NCBI RefSeq assembly: GCF_024223415.1
Contig: NZ_CP100500.1
Source of the DNA: Escherichia coli
GTDB taxonomy: Bacteria; Pseudomonadota; Gammaproteobacteria; Enterobacterales; Enterobacteriaceae
Reading direction: 5' to 3' (one strand)
Length of the DNA stretch: 64,000 nucleotides
Numbering within the stretch: position 1 is the first letter of the stretch; each line of letters begins with the position of its first letter. This document shows positions 8,081-64,000 of this stretch, in pieces. A program made the translations under genes and the position numbers. A model generated the notes under the pieces. It was not told the origin of the DNA. It ran no database searches and saw only the letters and a list, made by a program, of their open reading frames with translations.

Positions 8081-8860
8081 AATAAACCAACACAGATGAA
8101 ACGAAAAAAAACAACATTCATTCGAAGGTTGGTGGTAAGGAGTTTGCATATCCTGCATCTGTGCAAATATTCACCAGTTATGGGGCGCGAACGAAAATTT
8201 CTCTGAAAAAATCGCTACGGTAGCAACAGTAGCAGCACATGCACCATGTCTGTTATTTGATTTTGTTTTCATAATGACCTGTTGTCAAAGCTGATTGAAT
8301 ACAGGAGTGTGCGCACTGGTGGAAGAGTGGCTTTCGTTTTTGGTTATTCGAAAGAAAATCGAAATATTGTTTTTAACATAGCTGAAGCTAATCATATAAC
8401 CATATTTTTTGAGTTTTTATATATAACTTTGTTTGATTCTTGTCGTAATGAGTGCTGGCGTATATGACGATGTCGCTCTCTTTCTGAATAACGAAAGGTT
8501 ATCAGTCTTTTACTGACAAGAGATGCTGTTCAGGTTTCAATGGGAGATTGAAGAAAAACGATTTGATATTTTCCGTGAGAGAATGTCTTGTCAGGTTCAT
8601 ATTCATAACGGATAATTTCTTATTTTCACTCATCAGACATGGATAATTTTAATTTAGGTTTATTACTATAATTAGTATCTGTTCCTTTATTTTTATCCAT
8701 CTATCCCTTTATTTTTCATCTATCTATCCTTTTATTATTAGTATCTGTATTTTTATTATTGGCATCTGTCTATTTATTTTTATCATTCTCTCCTCTCTGT
8801 CTTTACTCTCATTGCTCTTACTCTCATTCTGTTATTTCTACTCGTGTTATCGTGTTCACT

Positions 8861-36839: not shown

Positions 36840-38062
36840 ATGTCGCAACCCTTACTGAAAGTAACCGACCTGGCAAAAAGCTTTTCCGGCGTATGGGCGC
36901 TGAGCAGCGCCCAGCTCACCGTCGGCACGGGTGAAATTCACGCTTTGCTGGGCGAAAACGGCGCTGGGAAATCCACGCTGTTGAAGGCACTCGCGGGCGC
37001 ACAGCCACAAACGCGCGGGGAGATCTGGTTCAATGGCGAAACGCTGCCGGTGGACGACTCCCCGGTAGAACGGCAGAACAAGGGCATTATCACCATCTAT
37101 CAGGAATTCAACCTGCTGCCCAATATGACCGTTGCGGAAAACATGTTTCTCGGACGCGAACCGCGTAAACGTAACCTGATCGTCGACGAAAAAGCGGTCA
37201 ATCAGGAAGCGCAGGTGATTCTCGATTATCTGCAGCTGAATGTCGCACCCACCACGCCAGTCGCCCGTCTGAGCGTGGCCCAGCAGCAGATGGTGGAGAT
37301 TGCCCGGGCGCTGACCCTCAATGCCAGGCTGATCATCATGGATGAACCCTCCGCCGCCCTGAGTGACAGCGAGGTGGAAAGCCTGCACCGCGTGGTGCGG
37401 GAGCTTAAAAACCGCGGCGTGAGCATTATTTACGTTACTCACCGTCTGCATGAAGTTTTCCAGCTTTGCGATCGTTTCACCGTTTTCCAGGATGGCCGTT
37501 TCACCGGCACCGGCGCAGTGACGGAGACGAACGTAGAGCAGTTGATCCGCCTGATGGTAGGGCGTGATGTGGCCTTTAACCGCCGCCCTGCCAGCGAAAC
37601 CCACCATGAAGACAAACCTGTCCGTTTGTCGGTGAAGGGGTTAAGCCGGGAAAAACCGCCGCTGGATCCACACGGCATCGCCCTGCATGACATCAGTTTT
37701 CACGTCCATGCAGGGGAAGTTCTGGGTATCGCTGGGCTGGTGGGGGCTGGTCGTACTGAGGTAGCGCGCTGCCTGTTTGGCGCCGACGCCTTTACCACCG
37801 GCAGCTTTGAGCTGGACGGCGTGCCGTACCAGCCGCGTGACCCACTTTATGCGCTGGAGCAAGGGCTGGCGCTGGTGCCGGAAGATCGCAAAAAAGAGGG
37901 GGCGGTGCTGGGTCTGTCGATTCGCGACAACCTGTCGCTCTCCTGCCTCTCCTCGCTGTTGCAGTGGCGCTGGTTTGTGAATACCCGCAAAGAGGACGAC
38001 CTGATTGAGTCCTACCGCCAGGCGCTGCAGATCAAAATGGTCAACAGCACGCAAGAGGTGCG
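36840..38062 (+). pseudogene. sugar ABC transporter ATP-binding protein (two-domain, RbsA-like), 3'-truncated by Mu-like prophage insertion
   Basis: First ABC domain complete (GENGAGKST…LSVAQQQMVEIARAL…IIMDEPSAAL); second domain stops after …QIKMVNSTQEV, before the expected LSGGNQQK signature; sequence from about 38063 is phage end. Confidence 0.75.
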
Positions 38063-38110
38063 TGATGCGCCGCGCGATAAATGCGCTCTATCTTGTGCGA
38101 TAAATGACAA
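38063..38110. repeat. Mu-type prophage end: terminal TG followed by two CGATAAATG-containing repeats (putative transposase-binding sites)
   Basis: tgatgcgccgcgcgataaatgcgctctatcttgtgcgataaatgaca; resembles recalled Mu attR terminus TGAAGCGGCGCACGAAAAACGCG and R-site core CGATAAATGCG. Confidence 0.5.
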
Positions 38111-38140
38111 CCAATCGGCGTTTCATTATTTGAAAAAGAA

Positions 38141-38520
38141 TTACATTTCAGGTTGCGTTATGACTGTCCCAGCGGGGTGATAGCGGTAGATCGTTGACAG
38201 TCCAATATCATAGATAATTACCAGCCGCTTTCTGTCATACCCTTTCTGGAGCAATCTTGCGATCTGCTCATGCTGCTCCTTCGTCAGTTTCGGGCGACGC
38301 CCTCCAACTCTCCCTTGTGCTCGCGCAGCAGTCAGTCCTGCCAGCGTGCGCTCAACTATCAGTTCACGTTCCATTTCTGCCAGTGCACCCATCATATGAA
38401 AAAAAGAACCTTCCCATCGGAGTGCTGGTATCGATTAAATCCGTCAGACTGCGAAAATTGACACCTTTTGCGCGTAGCTCTTCTGTGAGCGAAATGAGGT
38501 GTTTCATTCTTCTACCCAAC
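38141..38520 (-). pseudogene. Gin/Pin/Hin-family serine DNA invertase, N-terminally truncated and frameshifted
   Basis: …LISLTEELRAKGVNFRSLTDLIDTSTPMGRFFF then frame slips at A7 tract (38389-38395), continuing …MMGALAEMERELIVERTLAGLTAARAQGRVGGRRPKLT…; catalytic N-terminal about 60 aa missing. Confidence 0.7.
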
Positions 38521-38815
38521 CGTTACAGCTTCCAGACCACCAATGTATCCCCTCTTTTAAGGCACCTTAAAGCGCGTTTCAGGCCTGGTCGTTGCGACTT
38601 AGTTCCGCTCATTTGTCCTCAAAAATTTGTTCACATCCTGCGCACATTAATACATTGCGTTTTGGTCATTTGTTGACACACGTATGTAGCCAATCAGCAT
38701 CAAAAACACTCCCTTTTGAGTGGTTAAAGTAGTGAGATAATGTGGGGAAGATTTGAGAGATAACCCGCCCCCGCAATATCGCATTTAACTATATTGTGAG
38801 GGCGCGTGATACCGT

Positions 38816-39430
38816 TCAGCCAGCAAGCGCCAGTGGCGCTTCCGGCCAGCTGATTTCAGGTGCCTTGCTGATATCCAGTGCGTTCAGATCGTCGATATAA
38901 TCCAGCACGGCATTCAGTTTTGCCGTTTCTTCTGGTGTCAGACTGCGACCTGCCCGCAACTTAAGGTTGATGAGGTCGATGGACTTCATCGCCTGATCCA
39001 CCCGTTCCTGGCGTTGCTGTCTGGCAACCTCCAGCTCTTCGGCTTGCTGCCGTTCTGTATCGGTTACCCACGCCTCACCGTTCCAGGTATCCCATGGTGT
39101 GGCAGGCTGTTTTGTCGTTGTCCCTTCCGGGTAGTCACCTGGTTGGGTAATCTGGACCGGATTACCGTTCTCTGTGCTGTATACCGTCTCTCCACGATGA
39201 TCGGGGACATACTCCCACCCGTCCAGCGTGGACGTCCGGCAAATCACGTAACCCGGCATTGCCTCTGGCGGGGCATCGGCGCATGAATGTGCCGGGGTAC
39301 CCACCCCCAGGGCCAGATACTCCACAGAGGATGAGGTGTATTCCCGGGTTTCCTCATCATAGTGATATACAGTGATATCGCCTGCGAAAGTGGCGATACC
39401 GTTTTCATCCAGAACTGCAGTGTTACTCAT
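38816..39430 (-). CDS. phage tail fiber assembly protein (Tfa, Mu U-like)
   Basis: 204 aa immediately downstream of tail fiber gene with ATGA-type overlap; typical Tfa position. Confidence 0.7.
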   Translation of the reverse strand: MSNTAVLDENGIATFAGDITVYHYDEETREYTSSSVEYLALGVGTPAHSCADAPPEAMPGYVICRTSTLDGWEYVPDHRGETVYSTENGNPVQITQPGDYPEGTTTKQPATPWDTWNGEAWVTDTERQQAEELEVARQQRQERVDQAMKSIDLINLKLRAGRSLTPEETAKLNAVLDYIDDLNALDISKAPEISWPEAPLALAG

Positions 39431-62100: not shown

Positions 62101-62704
62101 AGCTGCCGCCCCCCCATGTCAGATAACGGGGGGCCAGTTCGTGCAGGATGCGCTGCGGATAATGACGGTTCTCCCGCCAGCTGGCAGCATTGCGTCCGGC
62201 ATTCACCGTGGCGACATGTCCGAACCAGCGCTGACTGTCCAGCCCCAGATTTGCGGCGAGCCGCTGGTCACGACGCACCCAGCCCGGGCCACCGTTATAG
62301 CCCGACAGTGTCATGGCCATACGCTCGCAGTCACTGGCGGCGCTGATGCGCTGCCACAGCCAGCGGTCATAGCTGACCAGCGCCCGGATGGCCCATGCCG
62401 GATTAAACGGCTCACGACTGCTCAGCGCCGGCATCAACTGGCTTATCCAGTCAGCGGTGGCGGGCATAAACTGCGCCAGCCCCTGAGCGCCCACCGGCGA
62501 GACCGCATCAGGCCGCCAGCCGCTTTCCTGATGCAGTTGCGCGGCGAAATCGGCCACCGGCGCAGACAGCCCCCATTCAAGCCGGGCATTACGGATCACA
62601 TCATCGCGATACTGCAGCGCAGCCTGCGGAGGCTGCGCTGCGCGGGCCTGACTGAAGAAGCCGCCACACCAGAGCAACATTGCGACAAAGAATACCCATG
62701 CCAT
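62090..62704 (-). CDS. endolysin, lytic transglycosylase (SLT domain) with N-terminal signal-anchor
   Basis: …ESGWRPDAVSPVGAQGLAQFMPATADW… SLT catalytic motif; hydrophobic N-terminus MAWVFFVAMLLWCGGFF. Confidence 0.75.
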   Translation of the reverse strand: MAWVFFVAMLLWCGGFFSQARAAQPPQAALQYRDDVIRNARLEWGLSAPVADFAAQLHQESGWRPDAVSPVGAQGLAQFMPATADWISQLMPALSSREPFNPAWAIRALVSYDRWLWQRISAASDCERMAMTLSGYNGGPGWVRRDQRLAANLGLDSQRWFGHVATVNAGRNAASWRENRHYPQRILHELAPRYLTWGGGSCVD

Positions 62705-62826
62705 ATGAACCAGAAAGGTCCCGACACGGACTGACAGGCGTTCGGTTCTGATGAAGACCAGAAAGGCTTCGAAAGCCAGTTTCAGGGACATGCATACAAT
62801 CCAGGTGCTCTGTGGCCAGTTCATGA

Positions 62827-63177
62827 TTAAAGCCCCATCGCAACAGCCAGACAGACAGCTGCAACAATCAGTGCACGGCGGATTAACGCAGCAGAAAAAA
62901 CCAGGTGAAGGCCGGTCTGTACGGGCCAGCGCCCCTCAGCCATGAGGCGCTCGTCATGCTTCAGGTACTGCCCCGGACGGGCCTTCGGGAAGAGTGAGCG
63001 GTCCAGCCAGTAGCCGAGCACGGCGGCGAGGGAGATGAGAGAGAGCTTGTACACCACCACCGGCAACTGCTGGGGCGAGACCAGCGCGATGATGAGGAGT
63101 AGCAGCACGGCCGCAACAAGCCATCCACGCAGGCGGGTTTTTTGTACGTCAGCGATAAGGGAAGTGAATGGTTTCAT
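62827..63177 (-). CDS. holin-like membrane protein
   Basis: 116 aa, hydrophobic TM segments, immediately upstream of endolysin. Confidence 0.5.
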   Translation of the reverse strand: MKPFTSLIADVQKTRLRGWLVAAVLLLLIIALVSPQQLPVVVYKLSLISLAAVLGYWLDRSLFPKARPGQYLKHDERLMAEGRWPVQTGLHLVFSAALIRRALIVAAVCLAVAMGL

Positions 63178-63308
63178 GAAAATGTCTCCTTGTTGTGTGG
63201 AGACAGCATGGCAAAAGCGTGGCGCGGAGGATTTTAAAGCGCGTTAAGAGAGAGGCGTGTTCGGGGTATGCAGAATACACGCTGGATCACTCACAAAGGA
63301 GATACAGA

Positions 63309-63857
63309 ATGACAGTCACACCGAAGCCGACCATCACCGTCAGAGTGTCCGGGCCTGTGGGCAGCGGTAAAAGTTACGTTCTGACGCGTATAAAAGAGAT
63401 GGTGAAAAAGGAATTTGGAAAAAGCGTCATTGTCGATGCCGCAGTTGTGGACGACGAGCGTATCTGTCGGACGAATGAGCTGCTTCAGGAGCAACTCATG
63501 AAGGTGTTACGCAAACTCACCGGTCAGACAACAAAATGTTTTTCAGCCCCGGAGTACGGGATACAGGAACACATCCCGGTGAACATGCCCCCCGTTAACC
63601 AGCCTCCCCGGTTCTTCGACGAATACATTCTGACACCGGAAAATAAAGCTGAGCATGAAGAGATCAAAGCGGCGTTGTTCCGGGAAATCAGGAAGATTGC
63701 TGAAATGCAGCTGGAGGGCGGGCTGGACAGAGTGATGGCGAGAGGAGAATGGGAATCGCTGTTTGAAAGAGTTTCCCCGGAATTGCTTCCCCTCGCACTG
63801 GCTATCGGGATTATGCAGACAGCGGATAAACCTCACTTACGTTCATTAAACACGTAA
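63309..63857 (+). CDS. hypothetical P-loop protein (GPVGSGKS), oriented opposite to phage late genes
   Basis: 182 aa from ATG 63309 with AAGGAG RBS; Walker A-like VSGPVGSGKSYVL; no Walker B obvious. Confidence 0.5.
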   Translation: MTVTPKPTITVRVSGPVGSGKSYVLTRIKEMVKKEFGKSVIVDAAVVDDERICRTNELLQEQLMKVLRKLTGQTTKCFSAPEYGIQEHIPVNMPPVNQPPRFFDEYILTPENKAEHEEIKAALFREIRKIAEMQLEGGLDRVMARGEWESLFERVSPELLPLALAIGIMQTADKPHLRSLNT

Positions 63858-64000
63858 CGCATAATCCGGGATACGCATTCAGCGATGACTGCATTTTCAC
63901 CGGTTTTTACTGCATCCAGAAGTGACTCTTTAAATGGTACGGGCCGGGGCTGCAGAAAGGTCGGCATGGCATTGAGCAGACAGAGCGTTTTTTCCGTGAG

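What the first reader, a model, noticed from the sequence alone, without database searches (positions are those of the whole stretch)
63178..63857. Divergently oriented P-loop gene between the lysis cassette and the upstream prophage region
This 182-aa ORF has a strong RBS and a GPVGSGKS Walker A motif, and is encoded on the opposite strand to all late genes. A hairpin-containing divergent promoter region lies at 63178-63308. Inverted-orientation genes in such positions are typically morons (lysogenic-conversion or anti-phage genes expressed from the prophage).
Basis: inference. Interest (0 to 1): 0.55.

Follow-up and report, generated by a model that had tools for sequence, protein, structure and literature searches.

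The report
Truncated orphan phage gene with P-loop motif
This is a real but uncharacterised accessory gene in a variable cargo slot of a Mu-like (BcepMu-type) E. coli prophage; it has only the motif of a P-loop ATPase, not the fold, and this copy has lost part of its one conserved domain.

Summary
The ORF is real: 63309-63857 (+), 182 aa, AAGGAG 7 nt upstream, GPVGSGKS at residues 15-22, opposite in strand to the late genes. The element is a ~37.6-kb BcepMu-like transposable prophage that continues about 12 kb past the gene, so this is not a host gene.

The window allele is a rare variant, found in about 14 of 582 E. coli carriers. Two in-frame deletions of 36 and 29 aa remove W61, P64 and the module's last third.

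The gene opens a 1.24-kb, lower-GC cassette. A related phage has 27 nt at this site, and another has unrelated genes. Cargo status is therefore supported. A defence function, NTPase activity and expression in lysogens are not. No sigma-70-like promoter was found. The conserved "hairpin" sequesters the holin Shine-Dalgarno sequence.

I propose a small phosphate- or nucleotide-binding protein used in phage-host conflict, leaning towards counter-defence. This rests on weak, contextual evidence. Interest is low to moderate.

The parts
63309..63857 (+). CDS of 182 aa including the stop codon. Member of PHROG 3787 and identical to RefSeq WP_021537374.1 'hypothetical protein'.
   Evidence: (phrog_3787, E = 5.9e-89)
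63296..63301 (+). Shine-Dalgarno sequence AAGGAG, 7 nt before the ATG
   Evidence: read directly from the sequence
63351..63374 (+). Codons for GPVGSGKS (residues 15-22), the Walker-A-like motif. G15, G20 and K21 are invariant in the N-module alignment.
63309..63461 (+). Remnant (residues 1-51) of the ~78-aa conserved N-terminal module. It keeps strand-P-loop-helix-VIVDA and E50 but lacks W61, P64 and the TVIRLEE segment.
   Evidence: AF2 pLDDT (per-residue confidence) is 58-76 here, against 93-96 in the full-length form.
63452..63453 (+). Junction of in-frame deletion 1 (108 nt, 36 codons, relative to the 242-247-aa alleles). It lies between short GAGCG repeats, and its exact position is ambiguous by a few nt.
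63485..63486 (+). Junction of in-frame deletion 2 (87 nt, 29 codons)
63609..63854 (+). C-terminal helical module (residues 101-182), preceded by a Pro-rich linker. It is nearly identical in all alleles that have it (dS 0.04-0.055). It belongs to the same high-identity block as the two downstream genes.
63256..64000 (.). Left part of a 1,241-bp cargo cassette (window 63256 to about 64496, so it runs past the window end). The cassette holds this gene, a 134-aa gene on the minus strand and a 71-aa gene on the plus strand. It is replaced by 27 nt in phage Phi06_2974 B and by a different 925-bp cassette in KP12.
   Evidence: 48.3% GC
63833..64000 (-). 3' end of a convergent 134-aa gene (phrog_2266). 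It overlaps the last 25 nt of the CDS and is cut by the window end.
63183..63205 (-). Inverted repeat GUCUCC-N9-GGAGAC in the holin mRNA leader. The 3' arm is the holin Shine-Dalgarno sequence. The stem is invariant in 6 loci while the loop varies.
63231..63236 (-). Candidate -10 hexamer TAAAAT of the late (holin) promoter, inside an invariant block. There is no -35 match (CACGCC), which is what activator-dependent Mor/C-type promoters look like. This is an inference.
63255..63282 (.). Dyad GCGTGT-N16-ACACGC, about -31 to -58 from the inferred late transcription start. The dyad itself is not conserved in relatives. Only a GCAGRAT core (63270-63276) recurs.
62827..63177 (-). Holin gene, the first gene of the late/lysis operon, divergent from the ORF
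   Evidence: (phrog_1528)

Best explanation
The ORF is a genuine protein-coding accessory gene. It sits first in a variable cargo slot of a BcepMu-type transposable prophage, between the activator-dependent late/holin promoter and the Dam-repressor region.

It belongs to an orphan, phage-restricted family (PHROG 3787). The only conserved part of that family is a ~78-aa N-terminal mini-module: a strand, then G-x4-GK[S/N], then a helix, then a conserved Glu, Trp and Pro. Interchangeable, mostly helical C-terminal modules are attached to it.

Shown here:
- The module is not a recognisable P-loop NTPase domain.
- It can exist on its own as a 75-90-aa phage protein.
- It is under purifying selection in full-length alleles.
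- The window copy carries two in-frame deletions that remove its last third.

Inferred:
- The module is a small phosphate- or nucleotide-binding unit.
- The C-terminal helical bundle mediates a protein contact.
- The protein acts in phage-host conflict during phage development, with counter-defence or host takeover more likely than lysogen defence.
- In this allele the N-module function is weakened or lost. The frame, and with it the C-terminal module, has been kept.
For: A real gene:
- PHROG match with E = 5.9e-89 and a strong Shine-Dalgarno sequence.
- dN/dS is 0.06-0.23 for the N part among long alleles, and 0.2-0.5 over the whole gene.

Cargo slot:
- An empty site and alternative contents exist in relatives.
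- GC is 48% in the cassette against 54-56% in the backbone.
- The prophage extends about 12 kb beyond the gene.

Conserved slot and module, mosaic C-termini:
- Salmonella and Citrobacter homologues of 291-343 aa sit in the same position divergent from the holin gene.
- E. coli alleles of 158, 182, 242 and 247 aa exist.
- The deep search returned 62 hits that share only residues 1-78.

Not a canonical NTPase:
- The best Pfam hit is AAA_35, i-E = 5.7e-4, and it covers the motif region only.
- NCBIfam scores of 10-18 bits compare with cut-offs of 180-875.
- The PDB profile search matches only 20-40 residues, at E >= 0.024.
- Foldseek against AFDB50 finds only the family's own members, and BFVD finds nothing.
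- The Walker-B-like D43 is not conserved across the family.

Autonomous module in diverse phages. Two phage types carry it in small-gene clusters that also hold an Acb2/Tad1-hairpin gene.

Deleted allele:
- Searches show the deletions.
- AF2 confidence for the N part falls from 93-96 to 58-76.
- dN for the N part is 0.14-0.15 against long alleles, compared with 0.01-0.04 among long alleles.
- Both deletions are in frame and are shared by a second 182-aa allele 84% identical in protein, with no stop codon acquired.
Against: - No experiment or homology links the family to any activity. Ligand binding is inferred from a motif.
- The counter-defence leaning rests on gene neighbourhoods in a handful of loci, and its enrichment was not tested statistically.
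- The gene is present in about 582 of the roughly 633 E. coli genomes that carry this lysis cassette. This could instead mean a backbone function, although the sample is highly clonal (many ST131).
- The AF2 model reports high confidence for the N-module yet no beta strands. I could not inspect the coordinates, so the 'no fold match' result depends on a model I cannot verify.
- The excess dN in the short alleles is based on small counts (about 15 nonsynonymous against 7.5-13 synonymous differences) and is not statistically secure.
- Expression timing is unknown.
Confidence: 0.5

Rival explanations
1. The gene is a moron expressed from the prophage in lysogens. It encodes a P-loop NTPase that gives the host superinfection exclusion, abortive infection or another lysogenic-conversion trait.
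For: - The slot is variable, has lower GC and shows an empty site in a relative.
- It lies beside the immunity region.
- The C-terminal mosaicism could reflect an arms race.
- Frequent truncated or frameshifted copies in genomes suggest it is dispensable to the prophage.
- The neighbouring 134/71-aa gene pair recurs in the variable region of P2-like phages.
Against: - There is no PADLOC hit beyond motif-level noise.
- No effector domain is present and no NTPase fold was found.
- No sigma-70-like promoter or terminator was detected.
- The conserved module occurs as a stand-alone 75-90-aa protein in 79-258-kb phage-like contigs and in early or accessory small-gene clusters of lambdoid prophages. 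A single-protein lysogen defence is not expected there.
- The window allele lacks invariant residues of the module.
Confidence: 0.2
2. The gene is a backbone function of enterobacterial BcepMu-like phages tied to the adjacent late promoter or lysis cassette. Examples would be a modulator of Mor-dependent late transcription, of lysis timing or of Dam expression. It would be transcribed divergently from the same control region.
For: - The position immediately divergent from the holin gene is fixed in E. coli, Salmonella and Citrobacter prophages, even when everything downstream differs.
- It is present in about 92% of E. coli genomes that carry the lysis cassette.
- The N-module is under purifying selection.
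- The intergenic control region is highly conserved.
Against: - The gene is absent from related functional or packaged phages Phi06_2974 B and KP12, and from Burkholderia BcepMu and phiE255.
- The module also occurs in unrelated phage types that have no such promoter context.
- No DNA-binding or membrane feature was predicted.
- The E. coli prevalence is inflated by clonal sampling.
Confidence: 0.12
3. The window allele is a decaying, functionless remnant. It would be an in-frame-deleted pseudogene that is still annotated as a CDS.
For: - The allele has lost 65 aa, including the invariant W61 and P64.
- AF2 confidence for the N part drops.
- dN/dS rises to 0.3-0.7 in the N and middle parts.
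- It is a rare allele, with 14-15 of 582 carriers at >=95% identity.
- Many other genomes carry frameshifted or truncated copies.
Against: - Both deletions are in frame.
- A second short allele has diverged by dS of about 0.16 without gaining a stop codon or frameshift.
- dN/dS is still below 1.
- The Walker A motif and the strong Shine-Dalgarno sequence are retained.
- The C-terminal module is intact and nearly identical to that of the long alleles.
Confidence: 0.18

Closest known systems
PHROG 3787 and RefSeq WP_021537374.1 / WP_000194951.1 / WP_000149908.1. These are 'hypothetical protein' entries; some copies are auto-named 'ABC transporter ATPase', 'KAP family NTPase' or 'P-loop NTPase family protein'.
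   Same: The ORF is a member (E = 5.9e-89). It occupies the same slot next to the holin gene in BcepMu-like prophages of E. coli and in phage PhiKM.
   Different: The window copy is 182 aa instead of 242-247 aa, because of two in-frame deletions. The family has no known function. The automatic names rest on the Walker A stretch alone.
P-loop NTPases (ABC-type ATPases, nucleotide kinases, KAP/AAA families)
   Same: The motif GPxGSGKS follows a hydrophobic strand and precedes a helix, as in Walker A. A VIVD stretch resembles Walker B.
   Different: The conserved unit is only about 78 aa. The Walker-B Asp is not conserved, and there is no ABC signature, Q-loop or H-loop. No significant profile hit was found and no structural match.
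Morons and cargo genes of temperate phages, such as P2 old/tin/fun and Mu mom (from general knowledge of the concept)
   Same: The cassette is inserted between genes that are adjacent in a relative. The alternative occupants are unrelated, and GC is lower than in the backbone.
   Different: No own promoter or terminator was detected. The first 230 nt of the gene stay fixed while its 3' part and the downstream genes are swapped. No conferred phenotype is known.
Small phage counter-defence proteins, such as the Acb2/Tad1 nucleotide-signal sponges (PF24729)
   Same: The proteins are small and restricted to phages, and they lie in early or accessory small-gene clusters. Three N-module loci (representing two phage types) have an Acb2/Tad1-hairpin gene nearby, at two genes' distance in two loci and at about 4.4 kb in the third.
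   Different: There is no sequence or fold similarity. No ligand binding has been shown. The association was not tested for enrichment.
Minimal designed beta-(P-loop)-alpha 'prototype' proteins (recalled from the literature on ancestral P-loop reconstruction, not checked here)
   Same: These are units of comparable size, built around one Walker A loop, that bind phosphate-bearing ligands without a full NTPase fold.
   Different: Those are laboratory designs. Here the unit is natural, its ligand is unknown and its structure is only predicted.

Membership tests
P-loop NTPase superfamily | Walker A motif G-x4-GK[ST] between a beta strand and a helix | tested here: met
   GPVGSGKS lies at residues 15-22. 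G15, G20 and K21 are invariant. S22 is nearly invariant and is Asn in some members.
P-loop NTPase superfamily | Conserved Walker B acidic residue at the end of a hydrophobic strand | tested here: inconclusive
   VIVD43 is present in E. coli alleles, but position 43 is D, V, I, E, G or K across the family. E50 is the conserved acidic residue.
P-loop NTPase superfamily | Three-layer alpha/beta fold with a parallel sheet of 5 or more strands, recognisable by structure comparison | tested here: not met
P-loop NTPase superfamily | Significant profile match to a curated NTPase family | tested here: not met
   The best Pfam hit is AAA_35, i-E = 5.7e-4 and 19 bits, over residues 6-71. NCBIfam hits fall far below the curated cut-offs. 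PDB profile hits cover only 20-40 residues, at E >= 0.024.
ABC transporter ATPase (the name given to some alleles in RefSeq) | ABC signature LSGGQ, Q-loop and H-loop in a nucleotide-binding domain of about 200 aa | tested here: not met
   LSGGQ is absent. The GlnQ model matches only residues 11-54, at 13 bits against a cut-off of 379.
Moron (independent cargo transcription unit in a phage genome) | Present between genes that are adjacent in related phages | tested here: met
   Phi06_2974 B has 27 nt in place of L001 12457-13697, and KP12 has a different cassette there.
Moron (independent cargo transcription unit in a phage genome) | Base composition different from the phage backbone | tested here: met
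   The cassette is 48.3% GC and this gene 51.0%. The late region is 55.9% and the early region 53.8%.
Moron (independent cargo transcription unit in a phage genome) | Own promoter and terminator, and expression from the repressed prophage | tested here: not met
   No sigma-70-like site and no terminator after the gene were found in 62700-64000. The 3' end overlaps a convergent gene. This was a consensus scan only, and expression itself cannot be tested with these tools.
Known anti-phage defence systems (PADLOC-DB v2) | Significant match to a defence-system protein model | tested here: not met
   The best hit is SngB at E = 3.8e-4 and 17.6 bits for the short allele, and only E = 0.026 over residues 13-56 for the long allele. 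This is motif-level similarity. The neighbouring genes give no hits.
PHROG 3787 | Significant match to the family profile | tested here: met
   E = 5.9e-89 in two stretches, because of the internal deletions.

The most novel reading that the evidence does not exclude
The ~78-aa N-terminal unit is a previously undescribed natural mini P-loop domain. It functions on its own (75-90-aa phage proteins) or fused to swappable helical adaptors. It binds a nucleotide or nucleotide-derived immune signal, or a host ATPase, to counter bacterial defences. BcepMu-like prophages keep it at a fixed site next to their late promoter.
Probability: 0.15. Interest if true: 0.7.

Novelty: new member of a known kind. 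Interest (0 to 1): 0.3.

Why it matters
As it stands, this is one more hypothetical prophage cargo gene. Its database names ('ABC transporter ATPase', 'KAP family NTPase', 'P-loop NTPase') over-interpret an 8-residue motif, and correcting that is useful for annotation.

The family could be worth a small experimental effort for three reasons:
- It is common, occurring in about 10% of complete E. coli genomes, including ST131.
- Its conserved unit is unusually small for a Walker-A protein and has no structural neighbour.
- A culturable phage, PhiKM, carries the full-length form.

If the unit proves to bind nucleotides or immune signals, it would be a new minimal phosphate-binding fold used in phage-host conflict.

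Tried and rejected
Searches on the protein that led nowhere:
- Pfam, NCBIfam and PADLOC gave only motif-level, sub-threshold hits.
- The PDB sequence profile search matched only the Walker A stretch.

Other searches with no useful result:
- tblastn against 50,697 phage records found only PhiKM, both for the whole protein and for the C-terminal module.
- Rfam found nothing in 62500-64000.
- Literature searches by RefSeq accession returned no papers. Searches on BcepMu and Mu-like prophage topics found nothing on this gene.
- The sigma-70 promoter and terminator scan found no promoter and only two terminator-like hits, both inside the holin gene.
- Searching the window for a second copy of the conserved late-promoter block found only the one site.

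Ideas rejected:
- A chance ORF: rejected on the PHROG hit, the Shine-Dalgarno sequence and dN/dS below 1.
- A host gene beyond a prophage end near 63190: rejected because the prophage continues to about window 75.9 kb.
- The GTG start at 63195: rejected because the homologues start at the ATG.
- A three-gene system with the 134/71-aa pair: rejected because that pair travels without this gene in P2-like phages, and this gene occurs without the pair in other prophages.
- The 1,264-aa hit P0047 from the deep search: dismissed as a repeat-driven artefact from a Gram-positive surface protein.

Full report
**The observation.**
The sequence shows an ORF from ATG 63309 to the stop codon at 63855-63857 on the + strand, encoding 182 aa. 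AAGGAG lies at 63296-63301, 7 nt upstream. The only G-x4-GK[ST] match is GPVGSGKS at residues 15-22. By my own estimate, a chance match in a protein of this size has a probability of roughly 0.5%, and the motif is conserved in relatives. All late genes, from the tail genes near 38.8 kb to the holin gene ending at 63177, are on the minus strand. The ORF, ribosome-binding site, motif and orientation are therefore confirmed. The ORF finder's longer GTG start at 63195 is not supported, because every homologue starts at the same methionine.

**Genomic setting.**
- The window is E. coli chromosome, 100% identical to strain NRZ14408.
- The prophage is a BcepMu-type (Bcepmuvirus-like) transposable phage. 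Its closest sequenced phage is Escherichia phage PhiKM, at 86% identity.
- Past the ORF, the annotated record continues with a 134-aa gene (-), a 71-aa gene (+), Dam methylase (+) and an HTH repressor (-).
- A + strand early operon follows, with DDE transposase, a MuB-like ExeA-family protein, Gam, gp16 and Mor. It ends about 12 kb further on.
- The prophage spans about 37.6 kb. It interrupts an eib-like gene for an immunoglobulin-binding protein with a YadA C-terminal domain, belonging to another prophage remnant next to prfC.
- The alternative of a host gene beyond a prophage end at about 63190 is therefore refuted.
- BcepMu-type genomes consist of two divergent arms. The ORF is opposite to the late arm but co-oriented with Dam and the early arm.

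**The intergenic region.**
I aligned the holin-upstream region of six related loci. Several blocks are invariant regardless of which gene lies on the other side.
- The first is the inverted repeat TGTCTCC/GGAGACA at 63183-63205. On the holin mRNA strand, its 3' arm is the holin Shine-Dalgarno sequence. The leader folds at -13.7 kcal/mol with z = -2.3. This is a holin translational-control hairpin and does not belong to the + strand gene.
- The second is GATTTTAAAG.GC.TTAA. On the minus strand it reads TAAAAT (63236-63231) with no -35 match. That is the architecture expected of an activator-dependent late promoter in Mu-like phages (an inference from established knowledge of Mor/C promoters).
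- The consensus scan found no sigma-70-like promoter on either strand and no terminator after the gene.
- How the ORF is transcribed therefore remains unknown.

**A cargo slot.**
- Pairwise blastn shows that phage Phi06_2974 B has 27 nt where this prophage has 1,241 bp (L001 12457-13697, which is window 63256 to about 64496). In that phage, Dam sits directly beside the holin gene.
- Klebsiella phage KP12 has an unrelated 925-bp cassette at the same site. It holds an unannotated 107-aa + ORF and a 188-aa - gene.
- Burkholderia BcepMu has three other genes there, co-oriented with the late arm.
- The cassette is 48.3% GC, against 55.9% for the late region and 53.8% for the early region.
- The downstream pair of 134 aa (-) and 71 aa (+) has overlapping divergent start codons. 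It recurs in the variable region of P2-like phages without the P-loop gene. The pair is therefore separate cargo.

**The protein family.**
- The protein matches PHROG 3787, a family of unknown function, at E = 5.9e-89.
- The common E. coli form is 242-247 aa. The window form lacks 36 and 29 residues through two in-frame deletions of 108 and 87 nt.
- About 582 of 5,426 complete E. coli genomes carry the gene, but only 14-15 carry this short allele at >=95% identity.
- About 633 genomes carry the adjacent lysis cassette over at least 80% of its length. The sample is strongly clonal, with many ST131 genomes.
- An exhaustive HMMER search found 62 relatives that share only the first ~78 residues.
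- In Salmonella and Citrobacter, homologues of 291-343 aa with unrelated or reshuffled C-termini occupy exactly the same position divergent from the holin gene.
- In other E. coli prophages a 158-aa form is followed by entirely different genes.
- A profile built from the N-module also finds stand-alone proteins of 75-90 aa.
- In the N-module alignment, G15, G20, K21 and P64 are invariant. V13, G18, S22, I28, L32, E50 and W61 are nearly invariant. The Walker-B-like D43 is not conserved.

**Is it a P-loop NTPase?**
- Pfam, NCBIfam and the PDB sequence search give only sub-threshold matches to many unrelated NTPase classes. All are confined to the strand-loop-helix stretch.
- AlphaFold2 models the N-module of the long form with pLDDT (per-residue confidence) of 93-96 and the remainder poorly.
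- Foldseek against AFDB50 finds only the family's own E. coli and Salmonella members. BFVD finds nothing.
- The motif is therefore real and conserved, but membership of the NTPase superfamily is not established. The RefSeq names 'ABC transporter ATPase' and 'KAP family NTPase' are motif artefacts.
- One oddity remains: the secondary-structure assignment reports no beta strands in the high-confidence N-module. I could not inspect the coordinates.

**State of the window allele.**
- The first deletion removes W61, P64 and the TVIRLEE segment. AF2 confidence for the N part drops to 58-76.
- dN/dS for residues 1-51 is 0.06-0.23 among long alleles. It is 0.31-0.73 between short and long alleles, with dN of 0.14-0.15 against 0.01-0.04. 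This suggests relaxed constraint, but the counts are small.
- Against outright decay: both deletions are in frame. A second 182-aa allele has diverged to 84% protein identity (dS of about 0.16) without acquiring a stop codon. The C-terminal helical module is nearly identical in all carriers.

**Clues to function.**
There is no PADLOC match for this protein or its neighbours. The N-module occurs in several contexts:
- In a Pseudomonas fluorescens prophage, it is the first of a run of small early genes upstream of ERF/YqaJ recombination genes.
- In a lambdoid Pseudomonas prophage, it lies two genes away from an Acb2/Tad1-hairpin protein, just before the terminase genes.
- In a 79-kb phage-like contig, it lies about 4.4 kb from another Acb2/Tad1-hairpin gene and a 'Sequestin' gene.
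- In 141-258-kb phage-like contigs, it lies beside virion genes.

This distribution is that of a small phage-serving accessory protein. I therefore lean towards a counter-defence or host-takeover role built on phosphate or nucleotide binding. The case is contextual and untested. A lysogen-defence moron, a backbone regulatory role and a decaying remnant all remain open.

**Verdict.**
This is a real gene and real cargo, but an ordinary kind of object: an uncharacterised prophage accessory gene, here in a damaged allele. No paper on this gene was found, either by accession searches or by BcepMu/Mu-like prophage topic searches. Interest is low to moderate. The only feature that could raise it is the orphan mini P-loop module.

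Noticed in passing
window 63183-63205 (minus strand): A 7-bp stem with a 9-nt loop lies in the holin mRNA leader, and its 3' arm is the holin Shine-Dalgarno sequence. The stem is invariant in six BcepMu-like loci from E. coli, Klebsiella, Salmonella and Citrobacter, while the loop varies. It probably controls holin translation.
   Followed up: partly
window 63229-63259 (minus strand): An invariant block contains a TAAAAT -10-like hexamer with no -35 match. This is a candidate Mor-dependent late promoter. No second copy of the block exists in the window.
   Followed up: partly
L001 13034-13652 (window 63833 to about 64451, mostly outside the window): A 134-aa (-) gene (phrog_2266) and a 71-aa (+) gene (phrog_4490) have overlapping divergent ATGs (CATG). 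The same arrangement recurs in P2-like phages (Midge, ST147-VIM1phi7.1, FSL SP-004) in their variable region. The Midge record notes HHpred similarity of the larger protein to T7 gp5.5/5.7.
   Followed up: partly
window about 37900-38280, and record NZ_CP158426.1 4578051-4578863 (beyond the window): The ~37.6-kb Mu-like prophage splits an eib-like gene for an immunoglobulin-binding protein with a YadA C-terminal domain. That gene belongs to another prophage remnant next to prfC, so this is a transposition into a prophage-borne virulence-type gene.
   Followed up: partly
window 38355-38926 (minus strand): A recombinase (Gin-like) gene is annotated as frameshifted at the tail-fibre end of the prophage. 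This suggests a disabled tail-fibre inversion switch.
   Followed up: no
L001 13698-13845; also L003 about 8368-8560 and L005: A segment of about 150-200 nt upstream of the Dam methylase gene is conserved in all loci, including the empty-site phage. It gives rise to a spurious conserved ORF (MKERPARC...). It may be a regulatory leader for Dam.
   Followed up: no
L003 7506-7829 (Klebsiella phage KP12): An unannotated 107-aa + ORF with a GGGGAG ribosome-binding site lies at the position equivalent to the P-loop gene. It is convergent with the annotated 188-aa gene (phrog_5663).
   Followed up: no
L013 3015-5131 (E. coli AR_0015): In prophages that carry the 158-aa allele, the repressor is followed on its own strand by 328-aa and 193-aa genes, and no Dam is present. 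This is another variant of the cargo region, possibly expressed in lysogens.
   Followed up: no
AF2 model of P0008: The N-terminal module has pLDDT of 93-96, yet the secondary-structure assignment reports no beta strands where ITVTVS, VIVDA and LIRLEE would be expected to form a sheet.
   Followed up: no
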